Below, one piece after another: positions 11,886 to 15,616 of a stretch of DNA of 51,778 bases. The DNA is from a virus. Taxonomy: Duplodnaviria > Caudoviricetes. A program made the translations under genes and the position numbers. The notes below the pieces were generated by a model. The model was not told where the DNA came from, did not search any database, and saw nothing but the letters and a program-made list of their open reading frames with translations. The DNA lies in the IMG/VR virus record IMGVR_UViG_3300043783_000043, positions 1 to 51,778 of that record; one strand, written 5' to 3'. The first letter of the stretch is position 1; the number at the start of each line of letters is the position of its first letter.

Positions 11886-11902
11886 AGTTCCTCCCAGCCT
11901 TG

Positions 11903-11931
11903 GCCTAGGGTTCCGGCCCTAGGCTCTTTTT
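11903..11931 (+). terminator. Rho-independent terminator
   Basis: GCCTAGGG-TTCCGG-CCCTAGGC then TCTTTTT. Confidence 0.75.
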
Positions 11932-11946
11932 CTGAGGGGGCTTACA

Positions 11947-14769
11947 GTGATCCCCGATAGTCTCCTAGCTGACGTGGAAACTCGGTCTCGCGTCAATCTT
12001 AAGGCGGCCGGCGCGCGACGGTACGCAGCGGACCAATCTACGCAGGTTACGACAGCTACGTGGATATTTCGCGGCGTTTTAAAAACCGCATGTACAGTGC
12101 ATCCATTCCTAGGGACACACGAGATTCACGAACTCTATAGCGATATCCGGCAGTGCCAACGCTTTGTGGCGCATCATGCAAATTTCGACGTTAACGTGCT
12201 ACGGCGCCAAAATCCGTTCATTGAGATTCCGGTCTCCAAAATTGACTGTACGATGGCCCGTGCACAGTGCCTCGCACTGCCTGGCGGTTTGGACGAAGTA
12301 TGCACGGCACTCGGAATCCGCGGCAAAGACCCACAGGGTCGTGCGCTTGTCATGGCGACATGCAAACCGCAACGCAACGGAGCATTCAACGAAGATGTTG
12401 AAACGTACCGACGATTGCTTGCCTACAACGTACAGGACACGCGTTGCCTTCAAGAGGTAGACAGCCGGCTGCCGCTGTTGTCGCCTTCCGAGCGATTGAT
12501 TTTCGAGCGTACATGGCGGAAGAATGAAACCGGACTGCCTATCGATATTCATTTGGCGACCGCAATTGCGCTCCGGCGAGAGGAGATTGAACAAGAAACG
12601 ACACTGAAACTCATGGAGATCACGAGCAACGCCGTAACCAAACTGTCGCAGCGTCAACGCATTATCGATTGGTGCAATGGCGGAAACCGTGCCGCGGGCT
12701 TGACAGACACGCAAAAGCACACGATTGCCGACAAATTGACTGACGAAAATCTGCATCCCGATGTACGTCTAGTCCTAGAGCTACTACGAGACGAAGGAGG
12801 TTCCGCGCCGCTCAAAGCACAGTCGCTTTTAGACCGACACGTCGATGGCTGGTACAAAGATGCAACACGCTATTTCGGAGCGCGATCGGGCCGCGGCACG
12901 TCCGAGGGCGCCAATATGTTCAATATCGCAAGACCGTCCGGCAAGCACGACGGCAAAAATGGCCGCCCGTCAATCGACAACATAATAGAGCGGCTAAAGC
13001 AGGGGCACACATCGCTAGGCAATATCGCCCTGACAGATTGCCTCCGCGGCTGTATCGTCGCGCCACGCGGCTGGTACATCTGCAATAACGACGAATCAGG
13101 AGCCGAGCTGCGCATCGCACTGTGGCAGGCTGGCGATGGCGAACGTTTAGGCATCTTAGCCGCCGGTAAAGACCTTTACATGCATAACGCGCGAGTTTGC
13201 TTAGGACTTCCTGAAACAGCGACTAAAGACACGCACCCGAAAGAACGTCAAACATTCAAAAGCGTTACACTCGGGGGCAACTACCAACTAGGTTGGCGTA
13301 CGTACCTCGCATTTCTGATAAAAACCGCCGCAGAAAACGGGCTGAAGAAACACGAACTTACCGAAAACAAGGCGCGGACTGACATTGAAGGCTATCGCCG
13401 CGCGAATCCGCTGCTGCAGAAACTTTGGTCGGACCTGGCCGACGCGTTCAAGTTCGCGATCTACGAGCCCCCCGGCCGCATCTTCCCAGCCGGTAAGATC
13501 GCATTCCAGAAAGACGTACACGGTACGGTATGGATGCTGTTGCCGTCCGGCCGTGCCGTACCGCATTACTCGGCGCACATTACGCACACGGGCGAGATGG
13601 CATTCTTTCGTGGCAAGTTCGGTGCCATGCTTCGGCAAAAGGCGTTTGGCGGTTCACTTCTTGAAATATCATGCTTAGCAGGCGAAACAGAGGTACTTAC
13701 TGACGCAGGACTGAAAAGAATTGACAGTGTGTCTGATAACGATAGGGTGTGGGATGGCTATGAATGGGTTAGTCATGGGGGGCTGATATGCCAAGGAAGC
13801 AAAGCCGTCGTGGTAGTATGTGGAACCCACGTCACCCCGGACCATTTGATACTGTGCTCCGAAAAGGACAGTATGCAGACGTGGCGCGCCGCGGGCGCCC
13901 TGTCGCGGAGCGAATTGAAATTGGCGATCGGTTTGGCAATGTCGTCATTACCGGATGGGTCCCGCGTCACGAGGGGCGTGGGAAGCGCATGGACGTTCTT
14001 GTTAAATGCGATTGTGGCGGTCCAGAAGAAATTAAACGCCGCAGTGACTTTCGCAATGCGGGTTTCACAGGCTGCACAATCTGCGCTCGAAATTCATTCG
14101 ACAGGATGCACGCCGTTAACTCCGGCCGCGATTTGGGGCTGGCCAGGACAGTGCATAAGCGACTCGCACGCCAGCTATCGGACGCTGTTTCGAGGTGCAC
14201 AAACCCAAATACACGAAGCTGGCCGCATTACGGCGGTCGCGGAATTTCTGTCTTTTGGCTGTGGCGCGTCAAAGGCGGCACGCGAAATTTTATCGAGTAT
14301 GCTGCGACACTGCCGCACTTTGACAACCCCGCTTTTGAAATGGATCGGAAAGACAACGACGGGAATTATGAACCGGGAAACATTCAATTTATTAGTCGCC
14401 AAGCAAACATGCTCAATCGCAGAAAAATCGAAGATTTTGAAGCAATCCGTTCCGGTTTACGATTTGTTGGACTGTGGCCCTCGCAACCGCTTCATGATAC
14501 GTACGCGTGCGGGGCACTTTCTCTTGGTACATAATTGTCAATCCATGACACGCGATCTCATAACTGCGGCAGAGGCAGATATCGAAAACGAGCTGCCCGA
14601 CGTCCTCTTGCTTCTGGACGTATACGATTCTATTCTGGCCCTTGCTCGTCAAGAGGTCGCTGCCGAACGATCTGCACAAATGCGTGCAATAATGAAACGT
14701 TCGCGATCGTGGACCACCGGACTGCCACTGGACTGCGAAGGCTACGAGGGTAAAAGGTATTCGAAATGA
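11947..14769 (+). CDS. polA: Family A DNA polymerase precursor with intein (940 aa; 652 aa after splicing)
   Basis: Exo DVETRS, HHANFD, YNVQD; motif A DESGAELR; motif B RQTFKSVTLGGNY; motif C DVYDS. Confidence 0.9.
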   Translation: MIPDSLLADVETRSRVNLKAAGARRYAADQSTQVTTATWIFRGVLKTACTVHPFLGTHEIHELYSDIRQCQRFVAHHANFDVNVLRRQNPFIEIPVSKIDCTMARAQCLALPGGLDEVCTALGIRGKDPQGRALVMATCKPQRNGAFNEDVETYRRLLAYNVQDTRCLQEVDSRLPLLSPSERLIFERTWRKNETGLPIDIHLATAIALRREEIEQETTLKLMEITSNAVTKLSQRQRIIDWCNGGNRAAGLTDTQKHTIADKLTDENLHPDVRLVLELLRDEGGSAPLKAQSLLDRHVDGWYKDATRYFGARSGRGTSEGANMFNIARPSGKHDGKNGRPSIDNIIERLKQGHTSLGNIALTDCLRGCIVAPRGWYICNNDESGAELRIALWQAGDGERLGILAAGKDLYMHNARVCLGLPETATKDTHPKERQTFKSVTLGGNYQLGWRTYLAFLIKTAAENGLKKHELTENKARTDIEGYRRANPLLQKLWSDLADAFKFAIYEPPGRIFPAGKIAFQKDVHGTVWMLLPSGRAVPHYSAHITHTGEMAFFRGKFGAMLRQKAFGGSLLEISCLAGETEVLTDAGLKRIDSVSDNDRVWDGYEWVSHGGLICQGSKAVVVVCGTHVTPDHLILCSEKDSMQTWRAAGALSRSELKLAIGLAMSSLPDGSRVTRGVGSAWTFLLNAIVAVQKKLNAAVTFAMRVSQAAQSALEIHSTGCTPLTPAAIWGWPGQCISDSHASYRTLFRGAQTQIHEAGRITAVAEFLSFGCGASKAAREILSSMLRHCRTLTTPLLKWIGKTTTGIMNRETFNLLVAKQTCSIAEKSKILKQSVPVYDLLDCGPRNRFMIRTRAGHFLLVHNCQSMTRDLITAAEADIENELPDVLLLLDVYDSILALARQEVAAERSAQMRAIMKRSRSWTTGLPLDCEGYEGKRYSK
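13672..14535 (+). mobile_element. Intein (288 aa, residues 576-863 of the PolA precursor)
   Basis: Block A CLAGETEVLT, block B VTPDHLI, block F VPVYDLLDCGPRNRF, block G LVHN followed by Cys+1; removal restores GGSLLEIS-CQSMTRD. Confidence 0.93.
13788..14534 (+). CDS. HNH homing endonuclease in an alternative frame inside the intein (start ATG13788 or GTG13881)
   Basis: GDRFGNVVI, KCDCG, CTIC, RCTNPN...YGGRGI, DRKDNDGNYEPGNIQF...NRR. Confidence 0.88.
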   Translation: MPRKQSRRGSMWNPRHPGPFDTVLRKGQYADVARRGRPVAERIEIGDRFGNVVITGWVPRHEGRGKRMDVLVKCDCGGPEEIKRRSDFRNAGFTGCTICARNSFDRMHAVNSGRDLGLARTVHKRLARQLSDAVSRCTNPNTRSWPHYGGRGISVFWLWRVKGGTRNFIEYAATLPHFDNPAFEMDRKDNDGNYEPGNIQFISRQANMLNRRKIEDFEAIRSGLRFVGLWPSQPLHDTYACGALSLGT

Positions 14770-14987
14770 CGCTACGGTGGGGGACAAAAAGGACAAAAAC
14801 GCGTAAAATACTCAACCACCAACAGAAAAGGGAGGTCGCAAAAGACGTACTAAACGGAAGACCAGTGAAACAAGTGGCGGCGGTGTGGCACATATCCCTA
14901 TGTGCTACCTACAAAATAATAAATGAGTATACTGTACTGGCGCGCACGGAAAGATATCCAGATATTCACTTTAATTTGAGTGGTTAG
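14766..14987 (+). CDS. Small helix-turn-helix protein
   Basis: GRPVKQVAAVWHISLCATYKII HTH pattern; ATGA-coupled to polA. Confidence 0.65.
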   Translation: MTLRWGTKRTKTRKILNHQQKREVAKDVLNGRPVKQVAAVWHISLCATYKIINEYTVLARTERYPDIHFNLSG

Positions 14988-15616
14988 AAACCAAACTTGA
15001 GTCCGCTGAATAACGTCCCGAGCCCGCTACCGAAACTTTGATCGTTTTTCGCCTGGGCCTGCGCGATCTGAGAATTGGCGTACATCTGTGACGCATCCAT
15101 GCTTTCTTGCTGTCCGGTGGCCGTGGTGCCTACGCCGATCCCTTGGAACATGTTGGATAGCGCGCTTTGCAACTGCCCAAATTGCTGTTGGTTGCCCTGC
15201 AAATAATTGGTATACGCATTGTTTGCGTACGTGCTCGTAATCCCTGTGTTGATACCTGACAGCGCTCGCTCATTCGCCCCTGATAGCAACCCGCCATTGG
15301 CAGCCGCACTGCTGTTCTGCGCAGCATCGGCGACGCCCATTTCATACTTGGCAGCCGGCGACGTTTGGTAGTTCGACATGAATGTGTTGTAGTTCAGATT
15401 CGGGTCCGCGCCCGCAACGCCGCTGATGCGATTGATGGCGCTTGTCGCTGGGTTCAGAAACGATTGCCCGAATTGATTGTACGGTTGCGTTTGACCGATA
15501 AAATTGTTGGCAATGTTGCTGATGTTGGATTGCGCGGAGTTGAGGTCGCTCATTGCGAGGCCGGAACCGATGACGCCCCCAAGTCCTGAACCAAACGTCG
15601 ATAAGTCCATTGCCAT
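14984..15616 (-). CDS. DNA ejection/pilot protein (P22 gp7-like)
   Basis: Gly/Ser/Asn/Gln-rich; TQPYNQFG, SAAANGGLLSGA; start 15616 or 15610. Confidence 0.7.
   Translation of the reverse strand: MAMDLSTFGSGLGGVIGSGLAMSDLNSAQSNISNIANNFIGQTQPYNQFGQSFLNPATSAINRISGVAGADPNLNYNTFMSNYQTSPAAKYEMGVADAAQNSSAAANGGLLSGANERALSGINTGITSTYANNAYTNYLQGNQQQFGQLQSALSNMFQGIGVGTTATGQQESMDASQMYANSQIAQAQAKNDQSFGSGLGTLFSGLKFGF

What the first reader, a model, noticed from the sequence alone, without database searches (positions are those of the whole stretch)
13672..14535. PolA intein whose homing endonuclease is hidden in an overlapping reading frame
Seen: the polymerase frame stays open through a 288-aa intein (C-LAGETEVLT ... 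TPDH ... VYDL ... VHN/C). Between blocks B and F this frame shows no LAGLIDADG or HNH motifs and reads like off-frame filler. The same DNA in the -1 frame (open 13773-14534) encodes a clear phage HNH endonuclease: GDRFG, KCDCG, CTIC, RCTNPN..YGGRGI, DRKDNDGNYEPGNIQF..NRR. Its stop codon is formed by the intein's terminal His-Asn codons (caTAAt). Possible starts are ATG13788 (after GGGGGG) or GTG13881 (AAGGA 12 nt upstream). Established: canonical inteins carry the endonuclease in frame, within the excised protein. Inference: this is a dual-coded mobile element of about 650-750 nt with separate translation of splicing and homing functions, and selection keeping both frames stop-free. A -1 slip at T GGG GGG (13776-13782) is a less likely route. 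I recall out-of-frame HNH genes inside phage insertions being reported, so novelty needs a literature check.
Basis: partly seen in the sequence, partly recalled or inferred. Interest (0 to 1): 0.92.

Follow-up and report, generated by a model that had tools for sequence, protein, structure and literature searches.

The report
Polymerase intein with out-of-frame endonuclease gene
A phage DNA polymerase gene carries a self-splicing intein whose middle part also encodes, in a different reading frame, a separate HNH-like homing-endonuclease gene; this layout is conserved in many phages and resembles cases described recently for other endonuclease types.

Summary
The family A polymerase ORF (11947-14769, 940 aa) stays open through a 288-codon intein (13672-14535). 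A 248-codon ORF (13788-14534) lies in the -1 frame and matches phage families named HNH endonuclease (phrog_374, E 1e-28).

It is not a sequencing error. The same two-frame layout occurs in 15 of 84 related loci, including Salmonella Jerseyviruses, Vibrio phages and APSE-2. None of the 84 has the endonuclease in frame.

Between the window and its 79%-identical relative, substitutions fall on the polymerase-frame wobble position in the exteins and intein ends. In the middle they fall on the endonuclease-frame wobble position (16/75/24). Synonymous recoding keeps the polymerase frame stop-free in only 0.1-0.4% of trials.

AlphaFold confidence is complementary between frames. The polymerase frame gives a Hint fold at both ends with an unstructured ~160-aa linker. 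The other frame folds confidently exactly where the linker lies.

33 of 34 close polymerase relatives lack the intein at a precise junction, and the two carriers sit in different clades, so the element looks mobile.

Caveats: translation, splicing and cleavage are inferred, and the canonical HNH catalytic His is an invariant Arg in this family.

Out-of-frame endonucleases in inteins were already reported (Gorbalenya 1998; Gogarten lab 2025-26). This is therefore a new member of a known kind.

The parts
11947..13671 (+). Family A DNA polymerase, N-extein (575 codons, GTG start)
   Evidence: ORF. Matches phrog_17 DNA polymerase at E 3e-53 and Pfam DNA_pol_A at E 6e-7, below the cutoff. It ends ...GGSLLEIS, which is the exact junction seen in 33 intein-less relatives.
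13672..14535 (+). Intein, 288 codons in the polymerase frame (class 1 type: Cys1 ... His-Asn, followed by Cys+1)
   Evidence: Boundaries come and from the intein-less alleles. Invariant residues are C1, T55, H58, D264, H287 and N288 in 11 aligned inteins. All 10 PDB profile hits are inteins. Foldseek on the AF2 model also hits inteins.
13672..13956 (+). N-terminal splicing domain (blocks A and B, then the W..A..L strand), intein aa 1-95
   Evidence: pLDDT is 90-95 for aa 1-90. Window-vs-L003 substitutions at polymerase codon positions 1/2/3 are 14/20/28 over 13672-13910.
13957..14448 (+). Polymerase-frame read-through linker (intein aa ~96-259): stop-free, not conserved as protein, no confident fold
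   Evidence: pLDDT is 24-61 for aa 101-260. Substitutions over 13911-14440 are 16/75/24, so they concentrate on polymerase-frame position 2. There are 0 stops against an expected ~5.
14449..14535 (+). C-terminal splicing domain (blocks F and G: VYDL...RNRF...LLVHN), intein aa 260-288
   Evidence: pLDDT is 93-94. Substitutions are 4/5/10 over 14441-14535. Y263, D264, G269, R273, F274, H287 and N288 are conserved.
13788..14534 (+). Nested ORF in the -1 frame: HNH-like putative homing endonuclease, 248 aa, lying wholly inside the intein
   Evidence: ORF. PHROG matches: phrog_374 E 1e-28, phrog_3377 E 3e-17, phrog_2081 E 2e-12, all named HNH endonuclease. AF2 mean pLDDT is 78.8. BFVD gives 94 hits at E<=1e-3. 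The wobble-position substitution bias falls in this frame.
13777..13790 (+). Candidate ribosome-binding site (GGGGGG) and ATG start of the nested ORF
   Evidence: Sequence. L003 has GGAAGGGG 4 nt before the homologous ATG at the same intein offset of 116. This part is inferred and not shown.
13905..14465 (+). Confidently folded core of the nested protein (aa 40-226): Cys-rich beta-hairpin module, helical module with YGGRGI, and a beta-beta-alpha motif MDRKDNDGNYEPGN..N
   Evidence: pLDDT is 84-97 for aa 41-210. Secondary structure shows E183-187, E199-203 and H204-226. Invariant residues are C74, C76, C96, R136, Y148, R151, G152, R187, Y194 and N198 in 29 relatives.
14532..14534 (+). TAA stop of the nested ORF, formed by the intein's terminal His-Asn codons (caTAAt)
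   Evidence: The same caTAAy arrangement is found in L003, L004, L010, L011 and L069. In the other relatives the stop lies 22-61 nt upstream, in block F.
14536..14769 (+). Polymerase C-extein (Cys+1, CQSMTRDL...) with stop codon
   Evidence: Substitutions are 18/8/40 at polymerase-frame positions 1/2/3.

Best explanation
The window is a complete 51.8-kb phage genome. Its family A DNA polymerase gene is interrupted by a mobile intein. The region where canonical inteins hold an in-frame endonuclease domain is occupied by an independent gene for an HNH-like homing endonuclease, read in the -1 frame.

Proposed mechanism:
1. Ribosomes translating the polymerase read straight through. They produce the N- and C-terminal halves of a Hint splicing domain joined by a ~160-aa unstructured linker. 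That linker is simply the off-frame reading of the endonuclease gene.
2. The intein then excises itself and ligates a 652-aa polymerase.
3. Other ribosomes start internally at ATG13788, behind a G-run, and make the 248-aa endonuclease. Its reading frame ends at a TAA formed by the intein's last two codons.
4. The endonuclease is expected to cut intein-less polymerase alleles of co-infecting relatives at ...LLEIS|CQSMTRD.... Repair then copies the whole element in.

Selection therefore acts on three things:
- the polymerase frame at the two ends;
- the endonuclease frame in the middle;
- the absence of stop codons and indels in the polymerase frame across the middle.

The most likely origin is invasion of an endonuclease-less intein by a free-standing gene of this family, not a frameshift of an in-frame domain.

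Shown: the anatomy, the conservation of the layout, the frame-specific selection, the fold predictions and the sporadic distribution.
Inferred: splicing, internal initiation, nuclease activity and target.
For: **Anatomy:**

**Conserved layout:**
- The endonuclease match lies inside a polymerase ORF of another frame in the window, L001-L008, L010-L012 and L069. In all of these the polymerase frame is +1 relative to the endonuclease.
- In L027 the polymerase frame is +2.
- APSE-2 has P46 annotated inside P45.
- Hosts L069 and L027 match DNA_pol_A.
- None of the 84 sources has the endonuclease in frame within a long ORF; the longest same-frame ORF is 353 aa.
- The 'longer' protein search found only 2 proteins, and neither is an intein.

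**Stop avoidance:**
- 14 of 14 nested loci with a +1 host have 0 stops in +1 and 3-28 stops in +2.
- 2 of 69 non-intein relatives have +1 stop-free.
- The recoding simulation gives P 0.0013-0.004.

**Frame-switching selection.** Substitutions at polymerase codon positions 1/2/3:

| Comparison | Region | Pos 1/2/3 |
|---|---|---|
| window vs L003 | N-extein | 132/101/326 |
| window vs L003 | middle | 16/75/24 |
| window vs L003 | C-extein | 18/8/40 |
| L006/L008 | middle | 35/107/53 |
| L002/L006 | middle | 33/80/46 |
| L010/L011 | middle | 2/15/1 |
| L004/L007 | middle | 55/92/68 |

There are no gap columns in the intein for window vs L003.

**Folds:**
- The intein model has pLDDT >=90 at aa 1-90 and 261-288 and 24-61 in between. 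It hits solved inteins.
- The nested protein has pLDDT 84-97 at aa 41-210 and <50 at both ends, where it overlaps the splicing blocks.

**Mobility:**
- 33 of 34 close polymerase relatives are intein-less with an exact junction.
- In a tree of 32 N-exteins the two carriers lie in different starred clades. The label needs 2 changes, and 0 of 200 bootstrap trees allow 1.

**Starts:** SD-like purine runs precede in-frame ATGs. These are GGGGGG in the window, GGAAGGGG in L003, AAGGAGG in L027 and GGGGAGGAG in L004.
Against: - There is no expression, splicing or cleavage data.
- Neither frame reaches any Pfam or NCBIfam model. The HNH name comes from PHROG family labels.
- The family has Arg where I-HmuI has its catalytic His, and it has no invariant His at all. 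Nuclease chemistry is therefore uncertain.
- Foldseek of the nested protein against the PDB finds nothing (best E 0.9). The I-HmuI profile match is not significant (E 0.4).
- The start codon is uncertain. Most relatives have ATGs at intein offsets 77 or 92, which the window closes with a TAG.
- No promoter-like site lies inside the intein, so expression would depend on the polymerase mRNA.
- With only two carriers among 35 close alleles, gains cannot be told from losses.
- The dip in identity next to the junction, relative to L118, is small: 54, 59 and 60 of 60.
Confidence: 0.8

Rival explanations
1. The nested ORF encodes a sequence-specific DNA-binding protein derived from an HNH endonuclease that has lost catalysis. 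It might act as a maturase-like or regulatory factor, or as a targeting subunit for another nuclease. Alternatively the element is no longer actively homing. In either case the dual coding is real, but the 'homing endonuclease' function is not.
For: - An invariant Arg replaces the His general base, and the family has no invariant His.
- Pfam HNH models do not match the motif region in 0 of 29 members, even at E<=10.
- Relatives in BFVD are variously named AP2 domain, DNA-binding domain or HNH.
- P0001 carries the module twice in tandem, which is more usual for binding modules.
Against: - The family is abundant as free-standing ORFs scattered in phage genomes. 510 of 597 candidate stretches in IMG/VR were confirmed, and 615 phage records match. 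This is the typical behaviour of homing endonuclease genes.
- The intein is sporadic among near-identical polymerases.
- Strong purifying selection acts on the ORF in several lineages.
- The acidic and Asn residues of the beta-beta-alpha motif (D186, D191, E195, N198) are conserved.
Confidence: 0.13
2. The endonuclease is made by programmed -1 ribosomal frameshifting from the polymerase frame. The product would be a fusion of N-extein, N-intein and endonuclease, not the product of internal initiation.
For: - The window has T GGG GGG at 13776-13782, just before the ORF.
- In one Jerseyvirus-like contig (L009) a one-base difference fuses the N-intein frame to the endonuclease frame, so such a fusion is at least encodable.
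Against: - The G-run is not a canonical X XXY YYZ heptamer in the polymerase frame and is not conserved in L003.
- Only 2 of 14 inteins have any such heptamer in the first 300 nt, and at different offsets.
- All relatives have in-frame ATGs, several with good SD sequences.
Confidence: 0.03
3. It is an artefact or a decayed element. On this view a canonical intein with an in-frame HNH domain has been put out of frame by two compensating sequencing errors or mutations. Alternatively the insertion is a group I intron with an HNH ORF, and the open polymerase frame is a coincidence.
For: - The homopolymer G6 at the frame boundary could attract indel errors.
- Long off-frame ORFs do occur in this genome, for example 185 aa at 12199..12756.
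Against: - The same relative frames occur in 14 further assemblies from isolates and metagenomes, at 20-79% protein identity.
- There is no in-frame version among the 84 sources.
- The polymerase frame is stop-free at P~0.001-0.004.
- The ends of the insert show polymerase-frame wobble bias and fold as a Hint domain. An intron would not.
Confidence: 0.02

Closest known systems
[quoted passage not shown]
   Same: - A contiguous, presumably splicing intein whose endonuclease is a separate ORF, in another frame, between the splicing blocks.
- The in-frame reading of that stretch has no recognisable structure.
- The proposed origin is invasion of an intein by a free-standing HEN.
   Different: - The out-of-frame types listed there are EndoVII-like, LAGLIDADG and VSR-like. 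HNH is listed only as an in-frame type.
- The hosts there are actinophage genes: terminase, minor capsid, thymidylate synthase and a DNA polymerase.
- Here the HEN is HNH-like and the host is a family A polymerase of phages of Gram-negative bacteria.
- Here the layout is shown across about 10 divergent lineages, with frame-specific substitution counts.
- Their supplements could not be seen and may list more.
Cyanobacterial DnaX intein with an out-of-frame LAGLIDADG endonuclease (Gorbalenya 1998, 'Non-canonical inteins', not held and known only through citations; Phillips et al., bioRxiv 10.64898/2026.09.14.751524, abstract and section 17 read)
   Same: - Overlapping ORFs.
- Low dN/dS in the endonuclease frame and loss of synonymous change in the extein frame across the overlap.
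- Sporadic distribution.
- Interpreted as secondary invasion of a mini-intein.
   Different: - A different endonuclease family.
- A cellular rather than phage host gene.
- A different host protein.
ShiLan domain and Pacc40 gp60 insertions: a hidden out-of-frame HNH in phage DNA methylases (Arsenault et al. 2025, PMC11855218; abstract, section 4 and found passages read)
   Same: - An HNH-type ORF in another frame of an insertion that the host frame reads through without stops.
[quoted passage not shown]
- The translation route is unknown.
- A relative of the window's endonuclease sits in exactly such a helicase-methylase host without an intein (L044).
   Different: - Those insertions have no detectable splicing domain and are thought to stay in the host protein.
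- Here the insertion is flanked by a complete Hint domain and should be removed by protein splicing.
Fractured genes: split inteins with a free-standing endonuclease gene between the halves (Dassa et al. 2009, PMC2677866; abstract and found passages read)
   Same: - A free-standing type endonuclease gene lies between the N- and C-terminal intein parts.
- Short overlaps occur between the end of the endonuclease gene and the C-intein coding region.
   Different: - There the host gene is broken into two ORFs and trans-splicing is needed, and the endonucleases are GIY-YIG or Vsr-like.
- Here the host frame stays open and the intein is contiguous.
[quoted passage not shown]
   Same: - The endonuclease sits at the same place in the intein, between blocks B and F.
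- The beta-beta-alpha motif aligns with I-HmuI's DH...N...N motif. I-HmuI is the best PDB profile hit, but E is only 0.4.
   Different: - The endonuclease is not part of the intein polypeptide.
- The catalytic His is an invariant Arg.
- Pfam HNH models do not match.
GenBank annotations of the same element: APSE-2 P46 inside P45 (DQ092617), and nested ORFs called 'endonuclease' or 'hypothetical protein' in some Jerseyvirus records
   Same: - It is the same intein-plus-nested-ORF family.
- The BFVD top hit is an 'uncharacterized protein' of 247 aa from Salmonella phage LPSE1.
   Different: - These are annotated only as hypothetical.
- I found no text that interprets them as an out-of-frame intein endonuclease.
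- The APSE-1 paper of 1999 is not held, so I cannot say what it states.

Membership tests
Intein (Hint domain, class 1) | N-terminal Cys/Ser, block B T-x-x-H, C-terminal His-Asn, and Cys/Ser/Thr as the first C-extein residue | tested here: met
   C1, T55-P-D-H58 and H287-N288 are present, followed by Cys. These residues are invariant in 11 aligned inteins. The block names are recalled from the intein literature.
Intein (Hint domain, class 1) | Hint fold, or sequence relationship to solved inteins | tested here: met
   - The profile of 11 inteins against the PDB gave 10 hits, all inteins (E 0.003-0.06).
- The AF2 model has pLDDT >=90 at both ends.
- Foldseek ranks 1-27, as listed, are inteins or a bacterial intein-like domain, with probability up to 1.00 and best E 5.9e-3.
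- Pfam and NCBIfam intein models gave no hit.
Intein (Hint domain, class 1) | Precise in-frame insertion relative to uninterrupted alleles of the host gene | tested here: met
   33 of 34 close polymerase relatives read ...GGSLLEI[S/A/F] directly followed by [C/G/A]Q..., with no insert.
Intein (Hint domain, class 1) | Protein splicing activity | not testable with these tools
   This needs expression of the precursor. The expected products are a 652-aa ligated polymerase and a 288-aa intein.
HNH / His-Me finger endonuclease | Match to curated HNH models | tested here: inconclusive
   - PHROG families named HNH endonuclease match at E 1e-28 to 2e-12.
- Pfam gives 0 hits for the window protein. 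HNH_3 matched 1 of 29 relatives over the whole protein and 0 of 29 on the motif region.
- NCBIfam gives nothing.
HNH / His-Me finger endonuclease | Beta-beta-alpha-metal fold | tested here: inconclusive
   - The AF2 model has strand 183-187, strand 199-203 and helix 204-226 at pLDDT >90.
- Foldseek of the whole model against the PDB found nothing (best E 0.9).
- The best PDB profile hit is I-HmuI, at E 0.4.
HNH / His-Me finger endonuclease | Catalytic histidine (general base) at the end of the first strand | tested here: not met
   - The position aligned to I-HmuI 'DH' reads 'DR'.
- R187 is invariant in 29 relatives, and no His is invariant.
- The role of His is recalled from the HNH literature.
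HNH / His-Me finger endonuclease | Conserved Asn residues of the motif | tested here: met
   N198 is invariant. D186, D191 and E195 are nearly invariant. The Asn of the helix (..N..N) is present in most rows.
Homing endonuclease gene (mobile element) | Sporadic presence among close relatives, incongruent with the host gene tree | tested here: met
   - 2 carriers among 35 alleles, counting the window plus 34 loci.
- The carriers lie in different starred clades, each with an intein-less sister. At least 2 changes are needed, and 0 of 200 bootstrap trees allow 1.
Homing endonuclease gene (mobile element) | Cleavage of the empty target site | not testable with these tools
   This needs a cleavage assay on the intein-less allele.
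Non-canonical intein with out-of-frame endonuclease | Both frames open across the overlap, and purifying selection on the alternative frame | tested here: met

The most novel reading that the evidence does not exclude
This is one widespread lineage of composite elements in phage family A polymerases, with four unusual properties.

1. A free-standing, His-less (Arg-substituted) HNH-like gene has become the obligatory mobility partner of a Hint domain while staying a separate gene.
2. The composite has moved between at least three insertion points of the polymerase. These are motif B, LLEIS|CQ in the window, and |CENICQ in APSE.
3. It has been captured in two different relative frames.
4. The intein's own conserved W-D-G-x-E-W codons serve as Shine-Dalgarno plus AUG for the nested gene in most members. 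One stretch of RNA would then be a splicing-domain strand and a translation start at once.

The same endonuclease lineage would also be the source of the intein-less 'hidden HNH' insertions of the ShiLan/Pacc40 type. Those would then be relatives or derivatives of such inteins.
Probability: 0.3. Interest if true: 0.65.

Novelty: new member of a known kind. Interest (0 to 1): 0.5.

Why it matters
- **Annotation.** It shows that the 'endonuclease domain' of a large, well-sampled group of phage polymerase inteins is not a domain at all but a nested gene. That group includes about 155 Salmonella phage records, as well as Vibrio phages and APSE. Gene callers miss the nested gene, and annotators label it 'hypothetical' or not at all.
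- **Evolution.** It supports the 'splicing domain first, endonuclease invades later' view of intein evolution. This is a case where the two partners are still separate genes.
- **A clean example of dual coding.** One frame is constrained only to avoid stops and indels.
- **An experimental system.** It offers culturable models in Jerseyviruses and an Escherichia phage for three questions:
  - how a nested homing endonuclease is translated from inside an essential gene;
  - how a Hint fold tolerates a 160-aa arbitrary linker;
  - whether an HNH-like motif with Arg in place of His cuts DNA.
- **Practical point.** Intein surveys that look only at the in-frame translation will misclassify these as inteins with degenerate or unknown endonuclease domains.

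Tried and rejected
- blastn (distant mode) of 13000-15000 against the phage collection found nothing. Relatives were reached only at the protein level.
- Pfam and NCBIfam gave no hit for either frame of the insert.
- A sequence profile of the endonuclease against the PDB gave nothing significant. Foldseek of its model against the PDB also gave nothing. Only the viral predicted-structure library matched.
- The feature search in the ESM Atlas returned unnamed viral clusters at 0.94. It gave only sub-0.9 leads to NUMOD and AP2 families. I use it as a lead only.
- I looked for co-conversion tracts next to the insertion site against the near-identical intein-less L118:
  - Identities per 60 nt outward from the junction were 54, 59, 60 on the left and 58, 55, 55 on the right.
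  - There were six synonymous differences within 21 nt of the site.
  - This is suggestive but too small to claim, and L118 has only 230 nt of left flank.
- A -1 frameshift route was considered and rejected.
- An internal promoter was looked for and not found. That scan covers sigma-70-type sites only.
- The search for fused in-frame forms among longer proteins found only 2 proteins, neither of them an intein. The tool itself says that finding none is weak evidence.
- In the tree I left out L115, L117 and L118 as short fragments.
- In the pair counts, L001/L005 had too few substitutions (2/4/0) to be informative, and L004/L007 is close to saturation.
- I did not run RNA read mapping, complex prediction or the representative-protein search. 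None of them would have decided translation or activity.
They may list polymerase inteins with out-of-frame endonucleases that overlap this family.

Full report
**What is there**

The window is a whole virus record, 51,778 bases and 99% complete by CheckV. A 940-codon ORF at 11947..14769 on the + strand is a family A DNA polymerase. It matches phrog_17 at E 3e-53, and Pfam DNA_pol_A at E 6e-7, below the cutoff.

From 13672 to 14535 this frame reads a 288-residue insert. The insert starts with Cys, has T-P-D-H at residues 55-58, and ends V-H-N, followed by Cys.

In the -1 frame a stop-free span runs from 13773 to 14531. It has an ATG at 13788 and a TAA at 14532-14534 built from the His-Asn codons.

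**Is the second frame a gene?**

- The 248-aa translation matches PHROG families named HNH endonuclease: phrog_374 at E 1e-28, phrog_3377 at E 3e-17 and phrog_2081 at E 2e-12. The polymerase-frame reading of the insert matches only the first ~45 residues of an 'endonuclease' family.
- tblastn against 50,697 phage records finds 615 records. The best are Salmonella Jerseyviruses, where the match lies under 'intein-containing DNA polymerase precursor'.
- In Salmonella phage SE2 and Vibrio phage 97.13 the polymerase ORF carries a homologous intein. A 252- or 248-aa ORF in another frame encodes the homologous protein.
- A 79%-identical copy in an IMG/VR contig (L003) has the same layout.

**How general is the layout?**

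A profile scan of IMG/VR returned 80 loci, taken from 510 confirmed relatives. I examined 84 sources in all.

| Group | Sources | Layout |
|---|---|---|
| Polymerase frame +1 to the endonuclease | window, L001-L008, L010-L012, L069 | Endonuclease inside an open polymerase frame of 794-1207 codons |
| Polymerase frame +2 | L027 | Endonuclease inside a polymerase frame |
| Frame-fused | L009 | A Jerseyvirus-like copy in which a one-base difference fuses the frames |
| Remaining | 69 loci | Almost all free-standing ORFs of 159-353 codons |

- No source has the endonuclease in frame inside a long ORF.
- Stops inside the matched stretch: 0 in the polymerase frame in 14 of 14 '+1' loci, against 3-28 in the third frame.
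- Among the 69 others, only L042 and L044 have that frame free of stops. Both are 64-70% G+C.
- APSE-2 has the same arrangement, annotated as P46 inside P45, in the other relative frame.
- The 15 nested loci are not independent. They fall into roughly ten lineages, because the Jerseyvirus, Vibrio, window and L010/L011 groups each hold close relatives.

**Chance**

I recoded the window's -1-frame protein synonymously, using the codon usage of the window's 31 long ORFs. This leaves the polymerase frame stop-free in 0.13% of 20,000 trials over 248 codons, and in 0.4% over the 176-codon core.

**Which frame is selected where**

Between the window and L003 I counted substitutions at polymerase codon positions 1/2/3:

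| Region | Pos 1/2/3 |
|---|---|
| N-extein | 132/101/326 |
| 13672-13910 | 14/20/28 |
| 13911-14440 | 16/75/24 |
| 14441-14535 | 4/5/10 |
| C-extein | 18/8/40 |

There is no gap column in the intein. Position 2 of the polymerase frame is the wobble position of the -1 frame.

The same switch is seen in the middle region of other pairs: L006/L008 (35/107/53), L002/L006 (33/80/46), L010/L011 (2/15/1) and, more weakly, L004/L007 (55/92/68). L001/L005 has too few changes, at 2/4/0.

So the middle evolves as the endonuclease gene and the ends evolve as the intein. Across the middle, the polymerase frame is constrained only to stay open.

**Folds**

- An alignment of 11 polymerase-frame inteins gives an AF2 model with pLDDT 90-95 for residues 1-90 and 93-94 for 261-288, but 24-61 in between.
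- Foldseek places the model among solved inteins. Ranks 1-27, as listed, are inteins or an intein-like domain, with best E 5.9e-3 and probability 1.00.
- A profile search of PDB sequences returns 10 hits, all of them inteins.
- The -1-frame protein, modelled with 29 relatives, has pLDDT 84-97 for residues 41-210. It falls below 50 at both ends, exactly where the ORF overlaps the splicing blocks.
- Structured parts of the two products therefore overlap by only a few codons at each side.

**Is it an HNH nuclease?**

This is the weakest point.

- Pfam and NCBIfam do not recognise the protein.
- Foldseek against the PDB finds nothing.
- The best PDB profile hit is I-HmuI, at E 0.4. That alignment puts the family's D-R on I-HmuI's D-H.
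- R187 is invariant in 29 relatives, and there is no invariant His.
- The model does show strand-strand-helix at 183-226.
- The viral structure library gives 94 hits at E<=1e-3. They are named HNH, AP2 or DNA-binding, and the top hit is a 247-aa 'uncharacterized protein' of Salmonella phage LPSE1.

I therefore call it HNH-like. I treat nuclease activity as inferred from family behaviour, namely many free-standing copies, intron and intein association, and sporadic distribution.

**Mobility**

- Of 34 IMG/VR loci with a close polymerase (68-93% identity over the 300 residues before the intein), 33 read straight across the junction. Only L110, which is the L003 contig, carries the intein.
- In a maximum-likelihood tree of 32 N-exteins, the window pairs with intein-less L085 (support 100/99). 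L110 lies in the other main clade (99/95) beside intein-less L114. The label needs two changes, and 0 of 200 bootstrap trees allow one.
- Homologous inteins sit at different points of the polymerase:
  - most in the K...LG|[C/S]GYG motif;
  - the window and L003 at LLEIS|CQ;
  - APSE-2 at |CENICQ.
- The correspondence of the last two sites, four codons apart, and the name 'motif B' are my reading by eye and from recall.

**Expression**

- No sigma-70-like site lies inside the intein. No conserved slippery heptamer exists (2 of 14).
- In-frame ATGs with purine-rich upstream runs are present everywhere. In most relatives they are at intein offsets 77 and 92, created by the conserved W-D-G-x-E-W codons.
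- The window closes those starts with a TAG. Its start is at offset 116, behind GGGGGG. L003 has GGAAGGGG at the same place.
- Internal initiation on the polymerase mRNA is the simplest reading. It remains untested.

**Comparison with the literature**

- The Gogarten-lab preprint on actinobacteriophage inteins reports out-of-frame EndoVII-like and antisense LAGLIDADG and VSR-like endonucleases in inteins. It lists HNH only as in-frame.
- Arsenault et al. 2025 describe an out-of-frame HNH in a non-splicing methylase insertion.
- Phillips et al. 2026 show frame-dependent selection in the dnaX intein, and cite Gorbalenya 1998 for the idea.
- Dassa et al. 2009 describe split inteins with a free-standing endonuclease gene between the halves.
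- Five full-text searches found no paper describing an out-of-frame HNH-type gene in a polymerase intein of Jerseyviruses, Vibrio phages or APSE. [quoted passage not shown]
- Gorbalenya 1998 and the APSE-1 paper of 1999 are not held, and supplements were closed. Prior mention therefore cannot be excluded.

**Verdict**

The kind of element is already known, so this is a new member: a different endonuclease family, a different host gene and a wide phage range. It comes with unusually clear comparative evidence. One open biochemical question remains, the Arg in place of the catalytic His.

Noticed in passing
L044:2968-3444 inside host ORF L044:1928-5236: A relative of the window's endonuclease lies out of frame inside a 1103-aa helicase_C + N6_N4 DNA methylase ORF. 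That ORF reads through it without stops, and no intein blocks are present. This is the same kind of host and layout as the Pacc40 gp60 'hidden HNH' insertion in the literature. The locus is 70% G+C, so the open frame is weaker evidence here.
   Followed up: partly
L009:2719-3525 (IMG/VR Jerseyvirus-like contig): A one-base difference relative to SE2 puts the N-terminal intein part in frame with the endonuclease. One ORF then reads N-intein plus endonuclease, and the polymerase is broken. This is either a sequencing error or a natural fused or dead variant.
   Followed up: no
L001:3235-4110 versus L001:1011-3395 (Salmonella phage SE2, JQ007353): The SE2 polymerase is annotated as two CDS because the frame breaks about 50 codons after the intein. 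Other Jerseyvirus records and L005 have one ORF. A frameshift or sequencing error in the C-extein is likely.
   Followed up: no
window 13749-13769 and the same intein offsets (77, 92) in L001-L012: The conserved intein motif W-D-G-x-E-W is encoded as TGGGAYGG....GAATGG. In the -1 frame this reads as a purine-rich run followed by ATG, so it creates the commonest candidate start of the nested gene. In the window a TAG at 13770 closes this start.
   Followed up: partly
P0001 (519 aa) and P0002 (679 aa): P0001 holds the endonuclease-like module (YGGRGI ... DRIDNDGxY ... N) twice in tandem. P0002 holds it once, in frame, in the middle of a longer protein of another kind. Neither was scanned against family libraries.
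   Followed up: no
intein ends in window, L003, L004, L010, L011, L069: In 6 of 14 inteins the nested gene's stop is the TAA inside caTAAy (the His-Asn codons). The published ShiLan insertion also ends TAAC, with TAA as the stop of its hidden HNH. This raises the untested idea that such intein-less insertions descend from inteins of this type.
   Followed up: no
window 11902-11925: A terminator-like hairpin (10 pairs, then a T-run) lies directly upstream of the polymerase start codon at 11947.
   Followed up: no
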